Shown: positions 3,387 to 46,847 of the stretch, one piece after another | How the letters are laid out: the number at the start of each line of letters is the position of its first letter | Position numbering within the stretch: the first letter of the stretch is position 1 | Notes under the pieces: model-generated | What the model was told of the DNA's origin: nothing | What the model saw: the letters and a program-made list of their open reading frames with translations, nothing else | Database searches by the model: none | Program-made: the position numbers and the translations under genes | Origin: Candidatus Berkelbacteria bacterium | Lineage (GTDB): Bacteria; Patescibacteriota; UBA1384; XYA2-FULL-43-10; 1-14-0-10-43-13 | Reading direction: 5' to 3' | DNA: 64,000 bases | Assembly: GCA_037143235.1 (NCBI GenBank) | Contig: JBAWZC010000003.1 | Coordinates: forward strand, 25,192 to 89,191

Positions 3387-4682
3387 ATGAATAAAATTAG
3401 ATCAATCGCAGCCGGGCTGCTGCTCTCTGCTATCACCATTTTCAGCCTGCCGACTTCGGCTTGGGCCGATGGAAGCATCAGTGCTTCTGGGGGCGGGACG
3501 AAAACTGTTGGTGACACCTTCAATATCACTGTAGCAGCCAAAGGTGCCGAATTTGATACCCTACAAGGCACAATTTCAGTCTCCGGACCAGTCGATATTG
3601 TTTCGTTTTCGGCTGGAAATGCGACCTGGATGCCTGGGTACTCACCCTCAAATGGCAAACAGTTTGTCGGCATGGTTAGCGCCACCTCCTCTTTCACTGT
3701 TGCGACGATCAGACTTCGCGCCAAAAGTATTGGCAGCGGCTCAGTCTCTGTTTCTGGCGCCAAGATGGTTAGAACGACTGGCGGGGTAGCCTCAGTCGTC
3801 GGCACTGGTACTGACGGAACGACTTTTACGATTCAACGAGCTCTTGTCACCCCGGGACAAATCACTGTCACTTCCTCCTCTCACCCAGATCAAAGCACCG
3901 CCTATGAAGCGACAACCATCGCCCTTGCGTGGGATAAGGGTAGTGGCGTGACTGATTTTTCCTATTTGCTGGACCAAGCCGCCGACACGACCCCTCCAAC
4001 AACCGCAACTTCCGCCGACACTTCGATCTCCTACCCAGACAAAGCCATCGGTGAATATTATTTCCATATCCGAGCAAAAAATGGCGACGGTTGGGGACCA
4101 ACAACAACTTTCAAAATTACGATCAAAGAGCCAGATGCCAAAATTGACGAAACACTTACCAAACCAACCATTTCTTCCATTGAAAAAACGGCTGATTTTT
4201 CGAACAATATTGCCGAGGGTAATATCAGCGGTATCAAGATCAAGGGCAAAACAATTGCCGGCTACACCGCTAATATTATTCTTGCTCCGTCGGTCTCGGT
4301 GCCCGAAGGAAAAAGTTTGTCTGCGATGGCTGATGCCAATGGCGATTTCGAACTTTTGATCGACTATCCAATCAATTCTGGTTTCTACAAATTGACTGTA
4401 CAAGGCCAGCTGAACAAGGTTTTGACACCGGTAAGTGATCCTACCATCTTCGAAATCTCCCAAGCTAAAGGCGGGAAAATCACACTTTTAACCTCAGCTG
4501 ACGAAAAAGAACCAATAATCCCAGTCAAAAAATGGTGGGAAAAAATCAACTATATGAACCTGTCGATCGGCTTGGCAGCGCTTTTCTTTATCGCTCTTGG
4601 TTTCAGCCTATACCTGCTGGTCAAGAATAGATCCATGAGTAAAGTCTGGAAAGGTGTGGCTGAGAAGATGAACCTCAAATAA
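3387..4682 (+). CDS. Cell-surface protein with beta-sandwich (cohesin/Ig-like) and FN3-like domains and a C-terminal TM anchor
   Basis: Signal peptide (MNKIRSIAAGLLLSAITIFSLPTSAWA). An N-terminal Gly/Ser/Thr-rich beta-strand region resembles cohesin or Ig folds. The segment 'YYFHIRAKNGDGWGPTTTFKITI' is FN3-like. The C-terminus has a hydrophobic anchor followed by KNR. It lies immediately downstream of the dockerin-bearing gene. Confidence 0.45.
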   Translation: MNKIRSIAAGLLLSAITIFSLPTSAWADGSISASGGGTKTVGDTFNITVAAKGAEFDTLQGTISVSGPVDIVSFSAGNATWMPGYSPSNGKQFVGMVSATSSFTVATIRLRAKSIGSGSVSVSGAKMVRTTGGVASVVGTGTDGTTFTIQRALVTPGQITVTSSSHPDQSTAYEATTIALAWDKGSGVTDFSYLLDQAADTTPPTTATSADTSISYPDKAIGEYYFHIRAKNGDGWGPTTTFKITIKEPDAKIDETLTKPTISSIEKTADFSNNIAEGNISGIKIKGKTIAGYTANIILAPSVSVPEGKSLSAMADANGDFELLIDYPINSGFYKLTVQGQLNKVLTPVSDPTIFEISQAKGGKITLLTSADEKEPIIPVKKWWEKINYMNLSIGLAALFFIALGFSLYLLVKNRSMSKVWKGVAEKMNLK

Positions 4683-5126: not shown

Positions 5127-6386
5127 ATGTTTAATCGCAAAGCGATTCTCTGGAACACCTTTTCTCAAGTCCTCGTCCGACTGGTCACTTTGGTGTTGAC
5201 ACTGATTTCGATCAAAATACTCGCTCGCTACATCGGCGTCGAAGGTGTCGGTAATTACAACGCGATCACGACCTATGTAAACTTTTTCATCGTCATCGCC
5301 GATCTCGGTCTATTTGCTGTGACTGTTCGAGAAATTGCCAAAAATCCAAATCTGGAGAAAAAGATTATTTCCAATGTCTTCACGATCAGAGCCGTAACTG
5401 CAGCTCTAGCCTGTCTGGTGGTAGTCGGAATTTTATTTTTTACCCCGTATCGCCACAATCCTGATATTTTCTACGGTTCTATCATCGCCTGTGGTTTCCT
5501 TTTTTTCAATCTACTCGGTAGCGTCTACGATATGGTCCTCCAATACCGCCTACAGATGCCCTATTCGGCTCTAGCAGAGTTTCTGAGCAAGTTTCTCTCC
5601 ATAGTGGCAATAGCGACCGTCGTCACACTCAGAGGCAATTTTCTCTGGGTCGCTGCCACGATCGCGATCTACGGCTTGTTTATCTTTGTTTTCAAGTGGC
5701 TTTTCTCTCGTCAATTCATCAAGTTTGGCTTTGAACACGATCGCAAATTTACCAAATGGATACTAGAAATGGCTTGGCCGATGGGCATCGTCTTCATCTT
5801 GAATAATCTTTACTTCAAACTCGACACACTCATGCTCTATGTTCTAAAAGGTGCAGCAGCTGTCGGTATCTACTCAGTCTCCTACAAAGTCCTCGAGGTT
5901 ACAGCTTTTATTGGCTCTTATTTCTCGAGTGCCCTAAAGCCCGCCCTGGCTCAAAACCTAAATACAGCCGAGCAAAGAAAAAATGTCGCCAGAATATTGA
6001 AAAAATCAGCCCTATTACTCTCTGGTCTCGGGCTACTAATTGCACTGATTTGTACAGCCTTTTCTGAGCCAATTCTCCGCTTGATTAGCTCGGACGAATT
6101 TGTCGCCGGCAAAGACGCTTTGATCGTCCTCTCTTTCACCCTGCCGCTGATCTTCCTGAACTATCTGATGGCCGAAGTGATGATTGCGGCTGACAAACGC
6201 AAAACTATGTTGAAGGTGACTGGCTTCATCCTGCTTTTCAACTTAATCTTGAACCTGATCTTCATCCCCCGTTACTCATACATCGCTGCAGCTTGGACCA
6301 CACTCGCTTCAGAGCTTGTCTTGGTGGTGGTCAATTACATAATTTCGAAAAATATACTCAGAGGAAAAGTCGAAAAAAGCCAATAA
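5127..6386 (+). CDS. wzx: Oligosaccharide/polysaccharide flippase (Wzx / MOP superfamily)
   Basis: 419 aa with ~12 TM helices. N-terminal 'polysaccharide biosynthesis protein' architecture. Sits in a glycan-locus context. Confidence 0.65.
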   Translation: MFNRKAILWNTFSQVLVRLVTLVLTLISIKILARYIGVEGVGNYNAITTYVNFFIVIADLGLFAVTVREIAKNPNLEKKIISNVFTIRAVTAALACLVVVGILFFTPYRHNPDIFYGSIIACGFLFFNLLGSVYDMVLQYRLQMPYSALAEFLSKFLSIVAIATVVTLRGNFLWVAATIAIYGLFIFVFKWLFSRQFIKFGFEHDRKFTKWILEMAWPMGIVFILNNLYFKLDTLMLYVLKGAAAVGIYSVSYKVLEVTAFIGSYFSSALKPALAQNLNTAEQRKNVARILKKSALLLSGLGLLIALICTAFSEPILRLISSDEFVAGKDALIVLSFTLPLIFLNYLMAEVMIAADKRKTMLKVTGFILLFNLILNLIFIPRYSYIAAAWTTLASELVLVVVNYIISKNILRGKVEKSQ

Positions 6387-6475
6387 GCCAGGCAGCTGGT
6401 AAGTGTTTAAGATTGTTAGCTTTCTTTTTGTCGTTGCGGACTGGTCCGCCACACTTGTAACCAAAATCGCTTGTT

Positions 6476-40044: not shown

Positions 40045-41037
40045 CTAGCTTTCTGACTTACCGGCTTGCTCACTCTCTTTCTCTTCTGCCTTTTTATCAT
40101 GAAATTTACGATGAACATCGCGCAGGTGCTGATCGGTCACATGAGTATAAACTTGGGTCGTCGTGATCGAGGAGTGACCAAGCATCGACTGAACACTCCT
40201 GATATCGGCCCCGTTTATGAGCAGATCAGTAGCAAAAGAGTGACGCAAAGTATGCGGAGTCACTTTTTTTGTAATCCCCGCTTTTTTCGCATATTTATGG
40301 ACAAGGCGCTCTACAGAGCGGACCGAGAGTCGAGAGTGTTGGCTCGAGATAAATAGTGGCACTTCAGCTAATTTGGAAAACCCCTCAGGCTCATAGCCAC
40401 GAGTGGCGAGAAAATCAGCCAGGGCTTTCTTCGCACTTTCAGAGAGAAAAACTACTCGAAATTTCTTGCCCTTGCCCAAAACAGCGATCTCGTCACGCTC
40501 AAAATTCAAATCTTCAACATTTAGTGAGACCAGCTCAGAGACTCGTAAACCAGTCGAGAAAAGGAGGTCAAGTAAGGCTTTGTCTCGCAGACCAGCCTCG
40601 TCAGCCGCTGGCATGGCTAATATCTGGTTAATCTCGTCACCTTCAAGAAAACTAATCTCACGCTCGTCAGCTTTGGCCACGGTCACCTTTTCGGGCGACA
40701 CAGTCACGATGCCTCGGTAGGCAAGGTAACGAAGATAAGCCCTTACAGCCAGCATGTGGTAATTCTGGGTTGATTTCTTTAGCATCTCCCCCTTTTGATC
40801 CTTGAGCCTGTTTACATGCAACCGATATTCTCTAATGACTTCCTGTGTCAGGTCGCTCGGCATGATGACTGCATGTTTTTGCGCCGCTTTATCCTCTGCC
40901 TTGTGCTTCTTCTCGTCAACAAAAATGAAAAAACGATCGATATAGCGATTGTATGCCTCGATAGTCAAGTTCGATTGATTTTTCTCGAGTTCACAGTGCT
41001 CGAGAAATTGACGCTTGAGCGTGTAGAGATCTTCCAT
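40045..41037 (-). CDS. xerD: Site-specific tyrosine recombinase (XerC/XerD family)
   Basis: Contains 'HTLRHSFATDLLINGADIRSVQSMLGHSSITTTQVYTHV' (R-H-R-Y catalytic region) and an N-terminal SAM-like core-binding domain. Confidence 0.85.
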   Translation of the reverse strand: MEDLYTLKRQFLEHCELEKNQSNLTIEAYNRYIDRFFIFVDEKKHKAEDKAAQKHAVIMPSDLTQEVIREYRLHVNRLKDQKGEMLKKSTQNYHMLAVRAYLRYLAYRGIVTVSPEKVTVAKADEREISFLEGDEINQILAMPAADEAGLRDKALLDLLFSTGLRVSELVSLNVEDLNFERDEIAVLGKGKKFRVVFLSESAKKALADFLATRGYEPEGFSKLAEVPLFISSQHSRLSVRSVERLVHKYAKKAGITKKVTPHTLRHSFATDLLINGADIRSVQSMLGHSSITTTQVYTHVTDQHLRDVHRKFHDKKAEEKESEQAGKSES

Positions 41038-41592
41038 TTACCTCCAGTTTTTTTGAGCCTTGGAGATGATCAGATAGGACAAAATACCAGAAAGGATGCC
41101 AAAAAAGGCGCCAGCGACAATATCTGTCGGGTAATGCAAGCCAGTAGCGATGCGCGAGACACCAATCATGAGTGCGATTACAAAGAGAGCCAGACCGAGT
41201 CGTTTATGACCGTAAAGGAAGATACTTGTTGCAACAGCAAAGGCAACATAGGTATGAGCAGAGGGAAAAGAAGAAGCGCTGAGTTTCATCCCATCAATAA
41301 TAGGCTGAATCACCTCGCCAAAATGGCTCTCAAAGGGATGCGGCCGACGCCAAAAAATAGAGATAACAAAGTCTGCAAGGGCGGCGATAGAAAGAGCAAT
41401 AAACGCACAGAAAAACGCTTTGATCGTCCCTCGCCAGATCAGGTAAACCGAGGACAAGATGATCAGCACAATGCCATATTTGGAAAAGAAGAAGAAAATA
41501 TATGATAGAAAATGATGGTCAATCTCGAGACGATAAAAATAGAGATAGATGTGATAGTCCCAAAAGCGCATTTTGTCGAAATATGTTTCCAT
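41038..41592 (-). CDS. PAP2-family phosphatase (undecaprenyl/phosphatidic-acid phosphatase type)
   Basis: Contains 'FPSAHT' and 'SRIATGLHYPTDIVAG' (PAP2 motifs 2 and 3). The track ORF extends to 41763, through a repeat element. The start is placed here at the internal ATG at 41590-41592 (METYFDKMRF...), which is outside the repeat. This is a judgement call. Confidence 0.65.
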   Translation of the reverse strand: METYFDKMRFWDYHIYLYFYRLEIDHHFLSYIFFFFSKYGIVLIILSSVYLIWRGTIKAFFCAFIALSIAALADFVISIFWRRPHPFESHFGEVIQPIIDGMKLSASSFPSAHTYVAFAVATSIFLYGHKRLGLALFVIALMIGVSRIATGLHYPTDIVAGAFFGILSGILSYLIISKAQKNWR

Positions 41593-41619
41593 AAGAGTAT
41601 GATAACACAAAGATTGACA

Positions 41620-41780
41620 GCTAAACAGCTGGTAAGTGTTTAAGTCTGTAAGCTGGTAAGTGTTTAATCTAGCAAGCTTTCTCGTTGTCATTGCGAGGAG
41701 TCTGCGACGCGGCAATCTATCATTTGAAATGCATGATGGATTGCCGCACTTTGGAAAACCCAATAGCTCGCAATGACAAA
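41620..41780. repeat. MITE-like intergenic element with terminal inverted repeats (module D + B)
   Basis: Two tandem 'agctggtaagtgtttaa' copies. Then 'ttgtcattgcgagg...ctcgcaatgacaaa' has 12-bp perfect TIRs (gtcattgcgag / ctcgcaatgac) flanking ~65 bp. Confidence 0.6.
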
Positions 41781-41843
41781 CATTTTGTATTCTTCGAGCC
41801 TACCCGCCCCTCGTAGTTTTAATGTAGTGGGGTTAAGAACAGC

Positions 41844-42524
41844 CTAAATCTTAACTTTCTCTGCCTCTCCTTGGTAATCTTTGATCGGTTGATAGACTGG
41901 GTCGAGTAATGCTGCTCGATCAAACGCTTTTTTAGCTTCGGCGAGATAGTTTTTCAAAACGTTTTTGTCCGTCTTCAAGTTAGTTGCCGCTCGCAAATTC
42001 GCAATTCCGAGATACAGCCAGCCGTCACGATAAGTATCATTTAGCGCAACAGAACGCTCAGCGGGAATAATCGCGTATTGATACTGCCCTCTTCCGATCA
42101 ACGACTGCGACAATATGGTCAGATCATAATATTTTTTATCTGTAACAGTCGATTCTGAATACAGTTGCAACGAAGCTGTTGCCTTCTCTCTTTTGAAAAA
42201 GTCTAACAACTTCGAAATGTCGCCGCTACCCTCCACGGCCAACTTTTTCTGACTTTTCGCTACTTTGTTGCTCGGCTCGAGCAACGAAGCCTTGGCATAC
42301 GACAGCTCGGCCCAATTGTATTTTGCCTCGAGCAAATATTTATCACCAGCGCTGATATAGTTAGCGGCCCAAGCGTGACGAATGGGCTTGGTCAACAACG
42401 ATAAGAAGGAAAGTCCTATCAAAAAAATGAGCAGATAAACTGCCGTTTGGTACCAAATAGGTGCCTTTTTAATCTTGACCAAACGATCGAGATAAAGTTT
42501 TTTGATCAATACTCTAGTATTCAC
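41844..42524 (-). CDS. Membrane-anchored hypothetical protein with TPR-like helical repeats
   Basis: N-terminal TM (VYLLIFLIGLSFLSLL). The remainder is helical with 'AELSYAKASLLEP' and 'AEAKKAFDRAALLDP' TPR-like pairs. No specific family recognised. Confidence 0.35.
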   Translation of the reverse strand: MNTRVLIKKLYLDRLVKIKKAPIWYQTAVYLLIFLIGLSFLSLLTKPIRHAWAANYISAGDKYLLEAKYNWAELSYAKASLLEPSNKVAKSQKKLAVEGSGDISKLLDFFKREKATASLQLYSESTVTDKKYYDLTILSQSLIGRGQYQYAIIPAERSVALNDTYRDGWLYLGIANLRAATNLKTDKNVLKNYLAEAKKAFDRAALLDPVYQPIKDYQGEAEKVKI

Positions 42525-42559
42525 TCTTGTCTATTTTATTTACGATTTATAATTCTTCT

Positions 42560-42750
42560 GTCGTAGCCGCTTTTATTTTGTCATTGCGAGGAGTCGGCGA
42601 CGCGGCAATCTATCATCTGATCTGTTTCCAACAAGTAAAGCTTGATTTACACACTGTCGTAGCCCACGCTTCAGCGTGTTTTCCCTACAAGCTAAAGATT
42701 GAGCTACGATTCGGAAGAAGAATTATCAGCTTATAAGCTTAAACACTTAC
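42560..42750. repeat. Composite intergenic repeat (modules B + E + D)
   Basis: 'gtcattgcgaggagtcggcgacgcggcaatctatcat' is ~92% identical to 41688-41725. 'cccacgcttcagcgtg' hairpin plus 'acaagctaaag...gagctac' are the reverse complement of 31905-31950 and 56395-56450. 'agcttaaacacttaccagct' is the reverse complement of module D. Confidence 0.6.
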
Positions 42751-42757
42751 CAGCTCC

Positions 42758-43564
42758 CTACTTCATCCACCCAACCACAGCCAATCCAATGACCAATGCT
42801 CCGAGCAGGATGCGATAATAGAAGAAGATCGAGAAGTCCGCTTTCTTGAGCCAAGCAAGCAAAAAACGAATGGCAATCAAGCCCGAGACGAGCGAAGCGA
42901 AAAAGCCAAGAACAAAGGCCAAATCCATATGGATTGCCGTGATCTTTTTCAGGTCAAAGACAAAAGCGCCAATCATCGCCGGTGTACCAAGCAAAAAAGA
43001 AAATCTGGCTGCTTTTTCGCGACTAAGACCGAGCGCGCGTGAGGCAACCATTGTGATACCAGACCGAGAAACGCCGGGGATCAGGGCAAGAGATTGAGCT
43101 AGACCAACCAAAAATGATTGCTTATACCGAATATCTTTTGTCTCCAAACTCTTGCGAGCATATTTATCGACTAAGAATAGAACAAGACCAAAGACGATGA
43201 GGTTCGTAGCCAATAAATACGGTGAATGCAGCTTACTTTCGACAATATCTGCTATGAGATAGCCGACCGCTCCTGCTGGGATAGTTGCGACCAAGATTTG
43301 CCACAAAAAATTGCGCGGATAATCCTCAGCAGTGACAGTTTCGCTATTATCTAGAGCGAGAGAAATTAGTTTGGCCCAATCTCGCCAAAAATATGCGACG
43401 ATGGCCACCACGGTGCCAAGATGCATCGCAATATCAAAGGACAGCCCCTGATACTGCCAATGGAAAAGACTGGGCACGATGACCAGATGAGCCGATGATG
43501 AGATTGGCAAAAATTCTGTAAAACCTTGGATGATGCCAAGTGTGATTGATTGCAAGTATTCCAT
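42758..43564 (-). CDS. uppP: Undecaprenyl-diphosphatase
   Basis: Contains 'GIIQGFTEFLPISSSAHL' and '...PGVSRSGITM', canonical BacA/UppP motifs. Length 268 aa. Confidence 0.9.
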   Translation of the reverse strand: MEYLQSITLGIIQGFTEFLPISSSAHLVIVPSLFHWQYQGLSFDIAMHLGTVVAIVAYFWRDWAKLISLALDNSETVTAEDYPRNFLWQILVATIPAGAVGYLIADIVESKLHSPYLLATNLIVFGLVLFLVDKYARKSLETKDIRYKQSFLVGLAQSLALIPGVSRSGITMVASRALGLSREKAARFSFLLGTPAMIGAFVFDLKKITAIHMDLAFVLGFFASLVSGLIAIRFLLAWLKKADFSIFFYYRILLGALVIGLAVVGWMK

Positions 43565-43763: not shown

Positions 43764-43813
43764 CAAATCTGTGTCAAATATGAAACGGCCGTTTCATATT
43801 TGACACAGATTTG
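43764..43813. promoter_or_regulatory. Perfect 50-bp palindrome, candidate operator / protein-binding site
   Basis: caaatctgtgtcaaatatgaaacgg|ccgtttcatatttgacacagatttg. The two 25-nt arms are exact reverse complements, checked base by base. The core recurs at 44529-44556. Confidence 0.5.
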
Positions 43814-43907
43814 AGGCAAACGATCGGGATATACGAATACGATTTGCTACCCCATTCTATTTTATAGGCGAGAATATGTTATCAAGGAACATAATATTTG
43901 GAATGAT

Positions 43908-44450
43908 CTATTTCTCCAACTTTTTTTTGATGTAGCCGTCAATATCTGACGTCGAAGAGACAATATAGATGATATAGTTCTCGACTCCGTATTCCCGCGC
44001 AGCTAGTTCGATCAATTCGCTCACATCGTGGTCTATCACCCACAGACTCTGTTGAATTTGCCGAAAACCGAGCCTCTTGATTGTTTTTCTGAACTGATTC
44101 CGTTTGGTTGACATTGCCTCGGGGATATCAAATGAAATAAACCGATGTACGCCATCTTTCCTTGGGACCAATTTCTCAATTATTTTCAATTTTGCCTTGT
44201 TGGTGAACCTAAACGAATCAGGATGATTTGCATCTTTTTCAAGATAACCGTGCCGTGTAAGATTACTAACTTTACGACTAAATTGGTCACGAGAATAATT
44301 GCTACCGCCATAATACAGATTTCTGTAAGCCGCTTTTTTCGAGATAAATGAGGAGCCAAGGATTTCGAAGGAGGCTGCCAGATTCTCCAAAAATAAAACA
44401 ACAGCACTTTTGAGATCACCTTTCTTGAGCACCACTACCTCCTCGCGCAA
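43908..44450 (-). CDS. Cas2-fold / PaaX-C-like small protein, candidate transcriptional regulator
   Basis: 'RFISFDIPEAMSTKRNQFRKTIKRLGFRQIQQSLWVID' fits the Cas2/PaaX C-terminal pattern (V-x-[FY]-D-[IV]...R..L...G.R.Q.S[VL][FW]). The gene is bracketed by two copies of a perfect palindrome. Confidence 0.35.
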   Translation of the reverse strand: MREEVVVLKKGDLKSAVVLFLENLAASFEILGSSFISKKAAYRNLYYGGSNYSRDQFSRKVSNLTRHGYLEKDANHPDSFRFTNKAKLKIIEKLVPRKDGVHRFISFDIPEAMSTKRNQFRKTIKRLGFRQIQQSLWVIDHDVSELIELAAREYGVENYIIYIVSSTSDIDGYIKKKLEK

Positions 44451-44525
44451 TTAATTAATCGCCCCAACTACACCTAGCATTAACAATTCGCCTTATACAT
44501 AAATATTACTTTTGCTTAAAAAATA

Positions 44526-44559
44526 TGTCAAATATGAAACGGCCGTTTCATATTTGTCG
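44526..44559. promoter_or_regulatory. Second copy of the palindromic operator candidate, lying in a divergent promoter region
   Basis: A 28-bp perfect palindrome caaatatgaaacggccgtttcatatttg (44529-44556), identical to the core of 43764-43813. It extends to 34 bp with one mismatch. Confidence 0.5.
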
Positions 44560-44677
44560 TTGATTTAAGGCTGATTATTCCAGATGCGTTGTATAGGGGT
44601 TCGCATAGGAAGTTGGACAGGAGGCTAGATGGAAGATCGTGAAAAAACAAACTTTTGAGGCCAAATATCTTGTCCCC

Positions 44678-44706
44678 TTGCAGCAAGATGACTTGACCTC
44701 TATAAT
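44678..44706 (+). promoter_or_regulatory. Sigma70-like promoter for the T4SS-like operon
   Basis: TTGCAG (44678-44683), a 17-bp spacer, then TATAAT (44701-44706). A GGAGGG RBS lies at 44742-44747 and the ATG at 44751. Confidence 0.4.
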
Positions 44707-44750: not shown

Positions 44751-46847
44751 ATGAATATACGAAATTTTATAGCCAAGATCCTCGTGATCTCTCTTTTTGT
44801 GACCATCTTGCCATATCAGCAGGCGATGGCAAAAAATGACATGCCAGCCACACCTACTCCAACACTTGGTGAGGGACAATATGATGAGGCAGGAAGCATA
44901 TGGGAGTGGCAACACGAAGATACTGATGGCGGAAGATGGGTTGTGATACACACTATTGCCCAAAAAGTTAACGGACAAATTGTTTACCACAAAATCAAAT
45001 ATGGACAAGATGCTGCAAACCTACAGACAACTTTTTCAATGGTAGACTATAAAAATGAAACTCGAAGTCTCGGCGGTCAATATTGGTTCAAGATGGAAAC
45101 ATATGACGACGACGGTGTTAGTGGATACAATATTTATATCTATATACATTCCAGAGGAACACAGAACCCACCAATACCATCGCCCTCGCAAACGCAAATA
45201 ACGCCGCCCGGTGAGTACAACCGAGACTTTGCTGATCCATCTTACCTCGGAACAATCGTGACATCAGCCAAAAAGGCTTACGGCCTTTACAAATGGGTCT
45301 ATACAGTACCAAAAGGCAAAATGCAAGACGCTGGGTATTGTATTGACAAGGGGCAGACAGCAATCGTGAGAGATGTCACTGGCGTGAGGCAGATAGAGAA
45401 TCTGGGCATGATAATCTTTGGCGCAACCACGGGGTACCGATTGGAAAATACATATACGAATGCCGCCGACGAAACAGCTATGTGTATGCAGCCAGTCATG
45501 AAATTTCAGTATGGCGACAAGACGAAAGCTGTGGAAAATTATCTAACTGCCACTAATGATTATCTAAACTCCAGAGATATCATAAACAAACCGAATGTAA
45601 CTGAAGAATTTATTACACCGGAGGAAATATCTGAAGCAGGCTGTAAATCTCCTCTTGGAAATGAGGCTGATGCAAAAAATACTTTCATGAAAAATTACGA
45701 TGAATATATGACCGTGCTCTGGGACAATGCCGTTGACAATAATGGCAACAGCATCGTTGTACCCGGAAATGTAAAAGACAAATACAAGGAAAACACTATC
45801 AATGCAATGAATGGCGATATGCCGGATATTACGAAGATTAATTCATTTAAACTACCCGGAGTTGATTGGGGTGGTATGTACCAACAATATTATGGAGGTT
45901 ACGGAATAAAAAACTATCCCGGTTCAGGGTATGGACCTGCCCCCGATGCGCAGTATCCCAACATGTTTTATGATAAAAACATGCTAGATCGTATGGATGC
46001 CCCTCTTAAACAGATTGAAAGTAGATGGAGCAAAAAACCCACACCAGAAAACGCACTTACGCTCCCTGACAAAAAGGTGATTGATATGGAAAAAACCCAA
46101 ATCAAGGCCGCCGAGGCGGTAACGAAGAAAAATGGTGGCTCCGTCCCAAATGGCGGGTTAACACTACCACAGGCCTCATGGATTCTAACTGGAGTAGCTG
46201 CAACCGGTCTTATCCTTGCCAAAACAGGAGTTTTTGCGGCGGCCTGGGGCGGAGTTAAGACCGCCGCTGTTAACTATGGAATTGCGATGTATTTAGATTT
46301 TGGTGTCGCCATAGAAAGTGCTGGAGCAACAATAGGAGTAGCTCTTGGTGCAACAGTAATTTTAATTGCTCTCGCGGTCGCTTTAACTGTTCTGGCAATA
46401 ACTTATGCCAACGTAGACAAATATTACAACCAGAATCTGGTAAAGGCACAGACAGCATTGCTTTATTCGACTTTCTTGGCAAGTAATGCGGCTGATTTCC
46501 ACGCTTGCATGCTTCAAAATTCAGTCAAGGCAAACAAAATGGACGCAGCAAAAGCTATTAAGCTTGGCTTAACCGACGAGAATGTTAAAAACGAGATGAT
46601 GAATATCGCTTATGGCAAGAATAATTATGCCAAATCGGTAGTGACAAATATAAAAAATGCTGGAAACTGCCCAGATATTAATCTTATGAATATGGGGCAG
46701 ACATTGCAAAGTGCAATTTGCAATGTCTTTTATATGCTCAACTCCCTGATTAATGTATTGGCCAACGGGGTTCGAGACTTTATGGTCAATAACATCTTGT
46801 CATTTAATACCCTAGGACCAGTACCAAAAATTATAAATACTGCATGA
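44751..46847 (+). CDS. Secreted protein with C-terminal membrane-spanning segments. First gene of the T4SS-like operon.
   Basis: Signal peptide (MNIRNFIAKILVISLFVTILPYQQAMA). There is a ~450 aa soluble region, then 2-3 hydrophobic helices ('WILTGVAATGLILAKTGVFAAAW', 'IGVALGATVILIALAVALTVLAITY'). The start is chosen at the ATG after the GGAGGG RBS rather than the track's upstream ATG. Confidence 0.45.
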   Translation: MNIRNFIAKILVISLFVTILPYQQAMAKNDMPATPTPTLGEGQYDEAGSIWEWQHEDTDGGRWVVIHTIAQKVNGQIVYHKIKYGQDAANLQTTFSMVDYKNETRSLGGQYWFKMETYDDDGVSGYNIYIYIHSRGTQNPPIPSPSQTQITPPGEYNRDFADPSYLGTIVTSAKKAYGLYKWVYTVPKGKMQDAGYCIDKGQTAIVRDVTGVRQIENLGMIIFGATTGYRLENTYTNAADETAMCMQPVMKFQYGDKTKAVENYLTATNDYLNSRDIINKPNVTEEFITPEEISEAGCKSPLGNEADAKNTFMKNYDEYMTVLWDNAVDNNGNSIVVPGNVKDKYKENTINAMNGDMPDITKINSFKLPGVDWGGMYQQYYGGYGIKNYPGSGYGPAPDAQYPNMFYDKNMLDRMDAPLKQIESRWSKKPTPENALTLPDKKVIDMEKTQIKAAEAVTKKNGGSVPNGGLTLPQASWILTGVAATGLILAKTGVFAAAWGGVKTAAVNYGIAMYLDFGVAIESAGATIGVALGATVILIALAVALTVLAITYANVDKYYNQNLVKAQTALLYSTFLASNAADFHACMLQNSVKANKMDAAKAIKLGLTDENVKNEMMNIAYGKNNYAKSVVTNIKNAGNCPDINLMNMGQTLQSAICNVFYMLNSLINVLANGVRDFMVNNILSFNTLGPVPKIINTA

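What the first reader, a model, noticed from the sequence alone, without database searches (positions are those of the whole stretch)
43764..44559. Two copies of a perfect palindrome (50 bp and 28/34 bp) bracketing a Cas2-fold/PaaX-like gene at the head of the T4SS-like operon
43764-43813 is an exact 50-bp palindrome: the 25-nt arms are perfect reverse complements. Its 28-bp core, caaatatgaaacggccgtttcatatttg, recurs at 44529-44556. That second copy sits in the divergent promoter region, between the small gene (minus strand, start 44450) and a good sigma70-like promoter (TTGCAG-17-TATAAT, 44678-44706) for the plus-strand operon. Long perfect palindromes duplicated at both ends of a small gene with a Cas2/PaaX-C-like fold suggest an autoregulated repressor/operator pair controlling the operon. 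The lower copy lies 250 bp upstream of uppP and could co-regulate it. No T-tract follows it on either strand, so a simple terminator role is unlikely.
Basis: seen in the sequence. Interest (0 to 1): 0.7.

Follow-up and report, generated by a model that had tools for sequence, protein, structure and literature searches.

The report
Mini-PaaX gene bracketed by cognate palindromes
A small DNA-binding protein gene in an uncultured Berkelbacteria genome sits between two copies of its own probable ~34-40 bp palindromic binding site, and the same "site-gene-site" layout recurs in 86% of 80 related genes across the Patescibacteria, an apparently undescribed cassette that is not specifically a switch for the neighbouring secretion-system genes.

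Summary
43764-43813 is a perfect 50-bp palindrome. Its 28-bp core recurs at 44529-44556, with no other copy or half-site in 64 kb. The gene between them (43908-44450, minus strand) encodes a winged-helix plus Cas2-like "mini-PaaX" that lacks PaaX's ligand domain.

The layout is family-wide. In 69 of 80 homologous loci from Patescibacteria the gene is flanked by a cognate ~40-bp dyad repeat, against 11 of 346 control genes. Long palindromes are over 100-fold enriched within 150 bp of the gene ends. The sites share a C-G core next to the dyad (mostly ACGA|TCGT), an AT-rich inner part and gene-specific symmetric outer boxes at ±13-19. This is the geometry of the E. coli PaaX operator (TGATTC-N27-GAATCA).

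Upstream copies overlap the gene's own promoter (16/45, against 2/46 downstream copies). Downstream copies sit about 35 bp after the stop codon, lack T-tracts and show no RNA-wobble signature.

Best reading: cognate operators of an autorepressor, forming a self-contained cassette. The cassette has been inverted, replaced, gained and lost during evolution. A third, orphan copy exists in the same genome.

Control of the T4SS-like operon or of uppP is not supported. A DNA-processing or mobile role for the conserved Cas2-like domain is not excluded.

The parts
43764..43813 (.). Downstream (3'-side) site: a perfect 50-bp palindrome with its dyad at 43788/43789, 120 bp after the stop codon. The part shared with the other copies is 43772-43805 (34 bp).
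   Evidence: As single-stranded DNA the hairpin folds at -26.3 kcal/mol, z = -10. Family-wide, the downstream copies are the more symmetric ones.
43908..44450 (-). Mini-PaaX gene of 180 aa (the database homologue is 174 aa, consistent with a start about 6 codons further in). [quoted passage not shown]
44529..44556 (.). Upstream (promoter-side) site: a perfect 28-bp palindrome with its dyad at 44542/44543, 92 bp before the TTG start. A degenerate dyad extends to 44514-44571. One half-site is weakened by 2 mismatches.
44503..44531 (-). Sigma70-like promoter of the mini-PaaX gene: -35 TTGACA (44531-44526, inside the gene-proximal arm of the upstream palindrome), a 17-nt spacer, and -10 TAATAT (44508-44503).
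   Evidence: 10 of 12 matches. The same design, outer box as -35 with the -10 at +33 to +36 from the dyad, is seen in about 7 homologous loci.
44678..44706 (+). Candidate promoter of the T4SS-like operon (TTGCAG-17-TATAAT). It is context, not part of the cassette. Its -10 lies about 160 bp from the upstream dyad.
   Evidence: Read from the sequence. It was not listed by the consensus scan because the -35 matches only 3 of 6.
42758..43564 (-). uppP/bacA, the co-directional downstream neighbour (context). A promoter-like site lies at 43600-43571.
   Evidence: Pfam BacA E = 1.4e-81. Promoter scan.

Best explanation
The two palindromes are the cognate DNA-binding sites of the protein encoded between them. 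That protein is a dimeric 'mini-PaaX': a variable winged-helix domain that reads gene-specific outer boxes at about ±13-19 bp from the dyad, joined to a highly conserved Cas2-like domain that dimerises over the conserved C-G centre.

The upstream site overlaps the -35 of the gene's own promoter, so occupancy represses the gene (autoregulation, as PaaX does at Px). The downstream site is the stronger, more symmetric one and lies just past the stop codon. It is a second operator. It most likely acts as an auxiliary anchor for looping, or as a protein roadblock or insulator at the 3' end of the unit. It is not a canonical terminator and not primarily the operator of a neighbouring gene.

Together, site-gene-site forms a self-contained cassette that works in either orientation. 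It is one of several diverged paralogous cassettes per genome in Berkelbacteria and other Patescibacteria.

Shown: the architecture, its statistics, the fold, the promoter overlap and the operator geometry. Inferred: binding itself, the sign of regulation and the role of the downstream copy.
For: 1. Specific linkage of palindromes to the gene.
- Only two copies, and no half-sites, occur in 64 kb.
- In 83 loci, 55 zero-loop palindromes (score >=12) lie within 150 bp of the gene ends (2.26 per kb), against 11 in the other 555 kb (0.02 per kb).
- 69 of 80 family genes have an upstream/downstream flank repeat, against 11 of 346 control genes.
- Relatives that lack the gene lack the palindrome.

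2. Each gene has its own sequence, but the design is shared. Next to the dyad, C2 and G3 are 95% and 93% conserved. Positions 7-12 are AT-rich. Positions 13-19 vary between genes but are symmetric, and symmetry decays after ±19-20. This matches the E. coli PaaX operator TGATTC-N27-GAATCA, 39 bp (PMC9493321).

3. The protein has a PaaX-like fold: wHTH plus Cas2-like domain. The wHTH is the variable part (0.44 majority fraction) and the Cas2-like domain is conserved (0.68-0.86). This parallels variable boxes around a conserved centre.

4. A sigma70-like promoter overlaps the site at 16 of 45 upstream copies, against 2 of 46 downstream copies (Fisher p = 1.7e-4). In the window the -35 TTGACA lies inside the palindrome.

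5. The constraint is not at the RNA level. Mismatches in imperfect copies are 64-65% non-wobble, as expected by chance. There is no T-tract enrichment and no Rfam family match.

6. The three sites in this genome share exactly ±17 bp (34 bp) and differ beyond that.
Against: - No binding data exist.
- Perfect symmetry over 40-56 bp, including positions that differ between sites of the same genome, is more than a ~180-aa dimer needs. It suggests hairpin or cruciform selection, or template-switch symmetrisation.
- The upstream and downstream copies are often identical even at asymmetric positions and lie in direct orientation (37 loci against 13, p = 0.0009). Pure operator selection does not predict this.
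- The cassettes have no consistent regulated neighbour. A regulator that regulates mainly itself needs another purpose.
- The Cas2-like domain is more conserved than a mere dimerisation module usually is, and it keeps the Cas2 catalytic-position Asp (D108).
- Only 18 of 45 upstream sites gave a recognisable promoter at all.
Confidence: 0.55

Rival explanations
1. Selfish or mobile DNA cassette. The palindromes are the element's ends: att-like or repeat-duplication products, or inversion/excision sites. The wHTH-Cas2-like protein is a site-specific DNA-processing factor (nuclease, nickase or recombination accessory) that acts at the conserved C-G centre. Autoregulation would then be secondary.
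For: - There are 4-6 diverged paralogues per small genome, scattered among unrelated housekeeping genes.
- The flanking ~40-bp repeats are usually direct and near-identical even at asymmetric positions.
- The cassette alone is inverted relative to both conserved flanks in three ortholog groups: the window against L002/L005/L007, L015 against L052, and L035 against L074.
- At two of these positions the family proteins are 27-35% identical while the neighbours are 56-79% identical. This suggests replacement.
- Presence/absence varies at the head of the T4SS-like cluster.
- An orphan perfect palindrome exists elsewhere in the same genome.
- The Cas2-like domain is highly conserved, and its invariant Asp aligns with the Cas2 active-site Asp.
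- About a quarter of the loci lie within roughly 850 bp of a contig end (my reading).
Against: - No transposase, recombinase or HUH motif is present.
- No near-identical gene copies occur within a genome, so there has been no recent transposition.
- Sixteen ortholog pairs keep position and orientation, and the same position is held across about 53% protein divergence.
- Different paralogues carry different sites, so simple site-specific exchange cannot explain replacement.
- None were found in 2.9 million viral contigs, and there are only weak PADLOC Cas2 hits.
- Inversion between two copies of a palindrome is expected from ordinary recombination without any dedicated enzyme.
Confidence: 0.2
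2. The palindromes are protein-independent nucleic-acid hairpins. They would act as bidirectional transcription terminators, mRNA-end stabilisers or insulators flanking a small gene. Their association with the family would be incidental to how these genes are expressed.
For: - The downstream copy sits a median 34.5 bp after the stop codon, and 23 of 43 downstream neighbours are convergent.
- The hairpins are very stable: -26.3, -19.9 and -11.1 kcal/mol.
- The orphan copy lies 113 bp after the end of the nrdD-nrdG-ZIP operon.
- The upstream copy was flagged terminator-like by the scan.
- Symmetry extends beyond the shared ±17 bp, with different sequence at each site.
Against: - There is no T-tract enrichment: only 5 of 37 downstream copies have at least 5 T in the next 8 nt.
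- Mismatch types show no G·U tolerance.
- The stems are AT-rich with a GC centre, the opposite of intrinsic terminators.
- In the window the upstream copy contains the -35, so it is not fully transcribed.
- Generic terminators would not be over 100-fold specific to one gene family, nor gene-specific in sequence, nor share a conserved C-G dyad.
Confidence: 0.1
3. One reading: the pair is the operator system through which this repressor switches the adjacent T4SS-like operon, and possibly uppP, on and off.
For: - This ortholog group is found next to the T4SS-like genes in several Berkelbacteria lineages: the window, L005 and L096 (TrbL-like genes seen), probably also L002 and L007. It occurs there in either orientation, and one palindrome always faces the operon about 170-250 bp from its first gene.
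- A weak plus-strand promoter-like site (44480-44507) would transcribe through the upstream palindrome.
Against: - The dyad is about 170 bp upstream of the best T4SS promoter's start site, and no second site or half-site lies near that promoter.
- A related genome has the T4SS-like genes with no cassette and no palindrome (L094).
- Most paralogues flank unrelated genes.
- Promoter overlap is a property of the gene's own promoter only.
Confidence: 0.15
4. Xer/dif-like recombination sites. The 28-bp core reads as 11-bp arm, 6-bp centre, 11-bp arm, and a XerC/D-like tyrosine recombinase gene lies 2.9 kb away. The pair would then define a Xer-mobilised or invertible module, like pdif modules.
For: - The core has 11-6-11 geometry.
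- A Phage_integrase/Xer-like gene lies at 40045-41037.
- The cassette has been inverted recurrently.
Against: - The Xer gene is linked only in this ortholog group (cluster C4, 4 loci), whereas the palindromes follow the mini-PaaX gene everywhere.
- Symmetry and specificity extend to ±19, beyond a 28-bp dif-type site.
- The arms do not resemble the E. coli or Firmicutes dif arms as I recall them (from memory, not tested).
Confidence: 0.04

Closest known systems
E. coli / Pseudomonas PaaX repressor and its operators (Px, Pa, Pz, pac)
   Same: - The operator geometry is the same: two inverted boxes about 26-27 bp apart, a site of about 39 bp.
- PaaX also autorepresses by occluding its own promoter (PMC9493321).
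   Different: - The protein is only about 180 aa and has no C-terminal PaaX_C effector domain.
- No paa genes are nearby.
- The whole ~40 bp is palindromic, with a conserved ACGATCGT or ACGGCCGT centre.
- A second copy always lies just after the stop codon.
- There are several diverged paralogues per genome, each with a private site.
- The Cas2 active-site-position Asp is invariant here. I recall that it is absent in E. coli PaaX, but this is from memory and untested.
Lambdoid phage immunity region (cI flanked by OL and OR, long-range looping)
   Same: - A repressor gene is bracketed on both sides by its own operators.
- Repressor and operator co-diverge rapidly as a module inside otherwise conserved neighbourhoods.
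- Co-operative looping between the flanking operators is the obvious mechanistic analogue.
   Different: - Here there is one long dyad per side, not tripartite operators.
- The 3'-side site carries no promoter (2 of 46).
- There is no phage context.
- The protein fold is unrelated to cI.
RAYT/REP and IS200/IS605 (small ferredoxin-like-fold proteins flanked by cognate palindromic hairpins)
   Same: - A small gene is flanked on both sides by family-specific palindromes.
- Several paralogues occur per genome, each with its own palindrome.
- The genes are stably inherited rather than actively hopping.
- Occasional orphan palindromes occur.
   Different: - There is no HUH motif or catalytic Tyr architecture.
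- The protein has a wHTH, so it probably reads double-stranded DNA.
- Palindromes occur in 2-3 copies, not tens to hundreds.
- The palindromes have a zero-length loop and are much longer and more perfect than REPs.
Cas2 (CRISPR adaptation subunit) / VapD
   Same: - It has a Cas2-like motif pattern (FDIPE...R...G...Q.S.W), with the Asp aligned to the Cas2 Asp.
- Cas2 is a dimer that lies along duplex DNA in Cas1-Cas2 complexes (textbook knowledge).
   Different: - It scores below the NCBIfam cas2 cut-off (19.7 against 24.5 bits).
- It is fused to a wHTH.
- No CRISPR-like array occurs in the window, and no cas1 was seen among the ten neighbouring proteins scanned.
- The flanking 'repeats' are full palindromes that bracket the gene itself.
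pdif modules / Xer-dependent invertible cassettes
   Same: Short gene modules are bracketed by palindrome-like recombinase sites and are found in both orientations.
   Different: The sites follow the mini-PaaX gene, not a recombinase. The sites are longer and perfectly symmetric. There is no evidence of Xer binding.

Membership tests
PaaX-family transcriptional repressor | [quoted passage not shown] | tested here: met
   [not shown]
PaaX-family transcriptional repressor | Central Cas2-like domain (Pfam PaaX_M, PF20803) | tested here: met
   57.2 bits against a gathering cut-off of 24, E = 1.9e-15, residues 98-168.
PaaX-family transcriptional repressor | C-terminal helical effector (phenylacetyl-CoA) domain, PaaX_C | tested here: not met
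   The protein ends at residue 180, directly after the Cas2-like domain, and has no PaaX_C hit. Nearly all of the best 150 relatives are about 145-240 aa.
PaaX-family transcriptional repressor | Operator of two inverted boxes separated by about 27 bp that overlaps the regulated promoter | tested here: met
   Symmetric gene-specific boxes lie at ±13-19 and symmetry ends at ±19-20, compared with TGATTC-N27-GAATCA. The site overlaps the gene's own promoter in the window and at 16 of 45 upstream sites. Binding itself was not tested.
PaaX-family transcriptional repressor | Genomic association with phenylacetate (paa) or related catabolic genes | tested here: not met
   The neighbours are Xer-like, PAP2, UppP and T4SS-like genes. 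Across 120 neighbours of homologues no paa-related family was among the 25 most frequent Pfam families.
Cas2 (CRISPR-associated) | Ferredoxin-like Cas2 fold with a conserved Asp after strand β1 | tested here: met
   [not shown]
Cas2 (CRISPR-associated) | Scores above the curated cas2 model cut-off and is linked to cas1 or a CRISPR array | tested here: not met
   TIGR01573 scores 19.7 bits against a 24.5 cut-off. No CRISPR-like tandem array occurs in the 64 kb. Not every window ORF was scanned for Cas1.
Intrinsic (Rho-independent) terminator | GC-rich stem-loop followed immediately by a T-tract | tested here: not met
   The hairpin is present but the stems are AT-rich. Only 5 of 37 downstream and 7 of 42 upstream copies have at least 5 T in the next 8 nt. 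None follows the 50-bp copy.
Insertion sequence / transposon (including IS200/IS605, RAYT) | Encodes a transposase (DDE, HUH-Y1 or similar), with near-identical copies or ends within a genome | tested here: not met
   No transposase family hit. No invariant His-x-His. There is one gene copy in the window, and paralogues within genomes have different sites.
Xer/dif-type recombination site | A 28-bp 11-6-11 site bound and recombined by a Xer recombinase | not testable with these tools
   The geometry is compatible and a Xer-like gene is nearby. However, the linkage is confined to this ortholog group.

The most novel reading that the evidence does not exclude
These cassettes may be a previously unrecognised class of self-bracketed DNA elements. 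In this reading a Cas2-related domain, still carrying the catalytic-position Asp, is targeted by a fused winged helix to a long private palindrome. It then acts on the DNA at the conserved C-G dyad by nicking, cleavage, cruciform processing, or promotion of inversion, excision or repeat duplication.

The 'palindromic repeat - insert - palindromic repeat' layout, the direct-repeat identity of the two copies, the recurrent flips and replacements, and the orphan sites would then be footprints of that activity. The family would be a free-living relative of Cas2 that bears on how Cas2 and palindromic CRISPR repeats came together.
Probability: 0.12. Interest if true: 0.9.

Novelty: new variant of a known kind. 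Interest (0 to 1): 0.66.

Why it matters
Patescibacteria (CPR) have tiny genomes, and to my knowledge few of their transcription factors have been characterised. This analysis finds a large family there: 1,453 clusters at 50% identity with E <= 1e-10.

Each member comes with a readable, private, roughly 40-bp recognition site on both sides of its gene. That gives dozens of natural protein/site pairs for decoding wHTH specificity. It also provides a ready test bed (EMSA, DAP-seq) in organisms that cannot be cultured.

The result further shows that PaaX-type operator geometry is retained in a form of the protein that lacks the ligand domain.

The conserved Cas2-like core, the palindrome bracket and the repeated inversion or replacement of the cassette raise a testable question: does a Cas2 relative here do more than dimerise?

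For annotation, the work argues against labelling this gene the T4SS regulator. It also flags these palindromes as a possible cause of contig breaks in CPR assemblies.

Tried and rejected
- **Generic repeat or chance.** Rejected.
- **Known RNA families.** Only sub-threshold miRNA-hairpin artefacts were found.
- **RNA-level selection.** Wobble against non-wobble mismatch counts match random expectation.
- **Canonical terminator.** There is no T-tract enrichment.
- **Downstream copy as the operator of the next gene.** The next gene is convergent in 23 of 43 loci, and only 2 of 46 downstream copies overlap a promoter-like site.
- **Domain-specific protein/site co-variation (Mantel tests).** The correlations are weak and equal for both domains (rho 0.13-0.19), so they are uninformative beyond shared ancestry.
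- **Defence-system membership.** PADLOC gave only weak Cas2 hits.
- **Phage origin.** No relatives were found in the viral contigs.
- **CRISPR array in the window.** None.
- **Literature.** No paper combines PaaX with Cas2, Patescibacteria or CPR, or Cas2-like with HTH and palindromes.
- **Sequence search of PDB with the Cas2-like domain.** Only designed-repeat artefacts and a weak Cas2 hit were returned, so I could not check whether E. coli PaaX keeps the Asp.
- **Extending the contig beyond the window.** One look-up returned only a 3.7-kb contig and the other found nothing.
- **The 175-aa JGI variant P0297.** It could not be located.
- **Simple att-type integration model.** It predicts two hybrid sites, but only the upstream site looks hybrid. 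I did not pursue it.
- **Dimer or DNA-complex prediction.** Not possible with the tools.
Full report
**1. The observation**

The window sequence and the repeat finder confirm a perfect 50-bp palindrome at 43764-43813, with its dyad between 43788 and 43789. A second, exact copy of its 28-bp core lies at 44529-44556. With up to three mismatches allowed, the core and a 22-bp sub-core occur only at these two places in 64 kb, and none occurred in 100 shuffles. The 17-nt half-site has no extra copies either.

The second copy is a perfect palindrome over 28 bp only. A degenerate dyad continues to 44514-44571. The two copies bracket an ORF on the minus strand, 43908-44450.

**2. The gene**

The 180-aa product hits Pfam PaaX_M ('PaaX central Cas2-like domain') at E = 1.9e-15 over residues 98-168. 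It hits cas2 models only below threshold.

- Foldseek ranks E. coli W PaaX (8a39) first.

There is no PaaX_C effector domain, so the protein is a 'mini-PaaX'. The closest database protein (99% identity) comes from a Candidatus Berkelbacteria MAG.

The neighbours are a Xer-like recombinase, PAP2, a 226-aa protein and UppP on the minus strand. On the plus strand lies a T4SS-like cluster with TrbL/VirB6-like and VirB4-like genes and an M15 peptidase.

**3. The layout is a family property**

Orthologous loci at about 53% protein identity (L002, L005) also carry one palindrome before and one after the gene. Their sequences differ from the window's, and L002 again has a perfect 50-bp downstream copy.

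A genome-collection scan returned 80 loci, nearly all labelled Patescibacteria (two contigs carry a Gammaproteobacteria label), often with 4-6 diverged paralogues per genome. Across 83 non-redundant loci:
- Zero-loop palindromes scoring >=12 occur 55 times within 150 bp of the gene ends (2.26 per kb).
- They occur 11 times in the remaining 555 kb (0.02 per kb).

Irrespective of palindromy, 69 of 80 family genes have an upstream/downstream flank repeat scoring >=14, against 11 of 346 control genes in the same loci. The upstream dyad lies a median 49 bp before the start codon. The downstream dyad lies a median 34.5 bp after the stop codon. A profile search counts 1,453 clusters at 50% identity with E <= 1e-10, and nearly all of the best 150 are 145-240 aa.

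**4. Anatomy of the site**

I aligned 182 arms on the dyad.
- Positions 2-3 are C-G in 95% and 93% of arms. The centre is mostly ACGA|TCGT, and ACGG|CCGT in the window.
- Positions 7-12 are AT-rich.
- Positions 13-19 vary between genes but are symmetric within a site.
- Symmetry decays after ±19-20.

This is the geometry reported for the E. coli PaaX operator, TGATTC-N27-GAATCA (39 bp; PMC9493321).

The protein mirrors the site. The winged-helix helices are poorly conserved (0.44), whereas the Cas2-like domain is highly conserved (0.68-0.86), with invariant SFDIPE, R117, FR, GF, Q133 and SLW. I infer that the variable wHTH reads the private outer boxes and the conserved Cas2-like dimer sits over the conserved centre.

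**5. Upstream and downstream copies differ**

Downstream copies are more symmetric (0.87-0.96 paired over positions 5-17) than upstream ones (0.64-0.91).

A sigma70-like promoter on the gene strand overlaps the site at 16 of 45 upstream copies but at only 2 of 46 downstream copies (Fisher p = 1.7e-4). A recurrent design uses the gene-proximal outer box as the -35 (TTGxCA at +10 to +13), with a -10 at +33 to +36. The window follows it: TTGACA at 44531-44526, a 17-nt spacer, and TAATAT at 44508-44503. E. coli PaaX is reported to repress Px in the same way, by steric hindrance.

The downstream copies are not canonical terminators, because only 5 of 37 are followed by at least 5 T in 8 nt. Mismatches in imperfect copies are 64-65% non-wobble, as expected by chance, so there is no RNA-pairing signature. 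Rfam finds nothing real.

The downstream neighbour is convergent in 23 loci and co-directional in 20. The 3' copy is therefore a feature of the cassette itself, not simply the next gene's operator.

**6. What the cassette does not do**

- The neighbours of family genes fall into 449 clusters for 633 proteins. They are ordinary housekeeping genes such as MgsA, RecO, NUDIX, AlaRS and LigA.
- In the window the upstream dyad is about 170 bp from the start site of the best T4SS-operon promoter.
- The lower dyad is 224 bp from the uppP start codon, about 190 bp upstream of its promoter-like site.
- A related Berkelbacteria genome (L094) has UppP, a 228-aa gene, a 718-aa gene and a TrbL-like gene with no family gene and no palindrome. 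L096 has the cassette directly upstream of the T4SS-like genes, with a perfect 42-bp downstream palindrome.

Direct control of the T4SS-like operon or of uppP is therefore not supported. The repeated placement of this ortholog group at the head of that cluster leaves a weak link open.

**7. Unexpected dynamics**

Relative to both conserved flanks, the cassette alone is inverted in three comparisons: the window against L002/L005/L007, L015 against L052, and L035 against L074. Sixteen other pairs keep their orientation.

In two of the inverted cases the family proteins are only 35% and 27% identical, while the neighbours are 63-79% and 56% identical. This implies replacement or very fast co-divergence of protein and site.

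Where sites are asymmetric, the upstream and downstream copies are usually direct repeats and nearly identical. L012 is 40/40, L036 is 37/37, and direct beats inverted in 37 loci against 13 (p = 0.0009).

Extra copies bracket adjacent genes in L023, L041 and L075.

A metagenome scan for the window's 24-mer found one further locus.
- It lies on another contig of the same assembly.
- It belongs to the same NCBI MAG, judged from protein accessions MEI8143322.1 and MEI8143647.1.
- It is a perfect 48-bp palindrome whose dyad is 113 bp after the nrdD-nrdG-ZIP operon.
- About 470 bp of non-coding DNA follow, and then three independent assemblies break nearby.

The three sites share exactly ±17 bp. 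Beyond that, the downstream copy and the orphan copy are each still symmetric but have different sequences. Symmetry itself is therefore being extended. I infer either template-switch symmetrisation or selection for hairpin potential.

**8. Interpretation**

The best-supported model (confidence 0.55) is that the palindromes are the cognate operators of a dimeric mini-PaaX.
- The upstream copy mediates autorepression at the promoter.
- The stronger downstream copy is a second anchor, either a loop partner or a roadblock/insulator.
- Together they form a self-contained, orientation-independent cassette.

The main rival (0.2) is that the cassette is a selfish or DNA-processing element in which the conserved Cas2-like domain, with Asp at the Cas2 active-site position, acts on the dyad. 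Multi-copy scattering, direct-repeat identity, flips, replacement, presence/absence and the orphan site favour this rival. Against it stand the absence of any recombinase or transposase motif, the absence of recent copies, stable positional orthology and absence from viral contigs.

**9. Comparison and novelty**

The system works like PaaX at Px in fold, operator geometry and promoter occlusion. It fails two PaaX membership features, the effector domain and the paa context. It is not a bona fide Cas2, being below the model cut-off with no CRISPR array in the window.

The bracketed-repressor layout resembles lambda cI with OL and OR. The 'small ferredoxin-fold protein flanked by private palindromes' layout resembles RAYT/REP, but without HUH chemistry.

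Four literature searches found nothing on this family or architecture. I rate it a new variant of a known kind. There is a modest chance (about 0.12) that it is something categorically new, a free-living Cas2 relative that processes its own flanking palindromes.

Noticed in passing
L089:10834-10881 (same assembly ERZ27300156, contig k141_1191371); also L087/L090 (JGI Ga0194063_10000630) and L091 (Logan SRR7053653): This is an orphan third copy of the window's palindrome. It is a perfect 48 bp whose dyad lies 113 bp after the stop codon of a nrdD-nrdG-ZIP transporter operon. About 470 bp of non-coding DNA follow. All three independent assemblies end within about 0.1-0.6 kb of it, and the Logan contig ends at the palindrome itself.
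   Followed up: partly
Loci L018, L038, L043, L048, L021, L045, L058, L078 and others (table): By my own reading of the table, not a formal test, about a quarter of the family loci lie within about 850 bp of a contig end. This is consistent with long perfect palindromes breaking de Bruijn-graph assemblies of CPR genomes.
   Followed up: no
L023:3861-3884, 4530-4553, 6383-6406; L041:1680-1703; L075:1913-1936: In some genomes additional cognate copies bracket the adjacent gene or genes as well. In L023 the bracketed gene encodes a 452-aa membrane protein. This gives site-gene-site-gene-site arrays.
   Followed up: partly
L012:3489-3510, L013:3513-3532; L089:11222-11290: A GC-rich palindromic motif (CCTGCCTGCCGGCAGGCAGG and relatives) recurs about 420 bp upstream of two family genes, and a related inverted repeat sits near the contig end beyond the orphan site. 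It may be an unrelated repeat element of these genomes.
   Followed up: no
window 40045-43564, compared with L002, L007, L094, L095 and L096: The Xer-like/PAP2/UppP/226-aa block next to the T4SS-like cluster is rearranged between Berkelbacteria lineages through block inversions and insertions (RhuM-like and HTH_3/SocA_Panacea genes). In L094 the Xer gene is split, and a gene hitting the 23S_rRNA_IVP family sits beside it.
   Followed up: partly
window 44751-46847 (+): The first gene of the T4SS-like cluster (698-704 aa, N-terminal signal-like segment, no Pfam hit) is only about 23% identical to its positional counterparts in L002 and L005. It looks like a very fast-evolving, probably surface-exposed protein.
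   Followed up: partly
window 41627-41678: A 24-bp tandem repeat (2.2 copies, AGCTGGTAAGTGTTTAAGTCTGCA) lies just upstream of the PAP2 gene as called in the homologous contig. It falls inside the longer mechanical ORF 41038-41763.
   Followed up: no
L054 and L055 (JAPLVH010000004.1, about 7.4 kb apart): Two paralogous cassettes on one contig have related sites with a TACGTA centre, differing at 2-4 of the central 24 bp. This is a possible recent duplication, or a case of cross-talk between paralogues.
   Followed up: no
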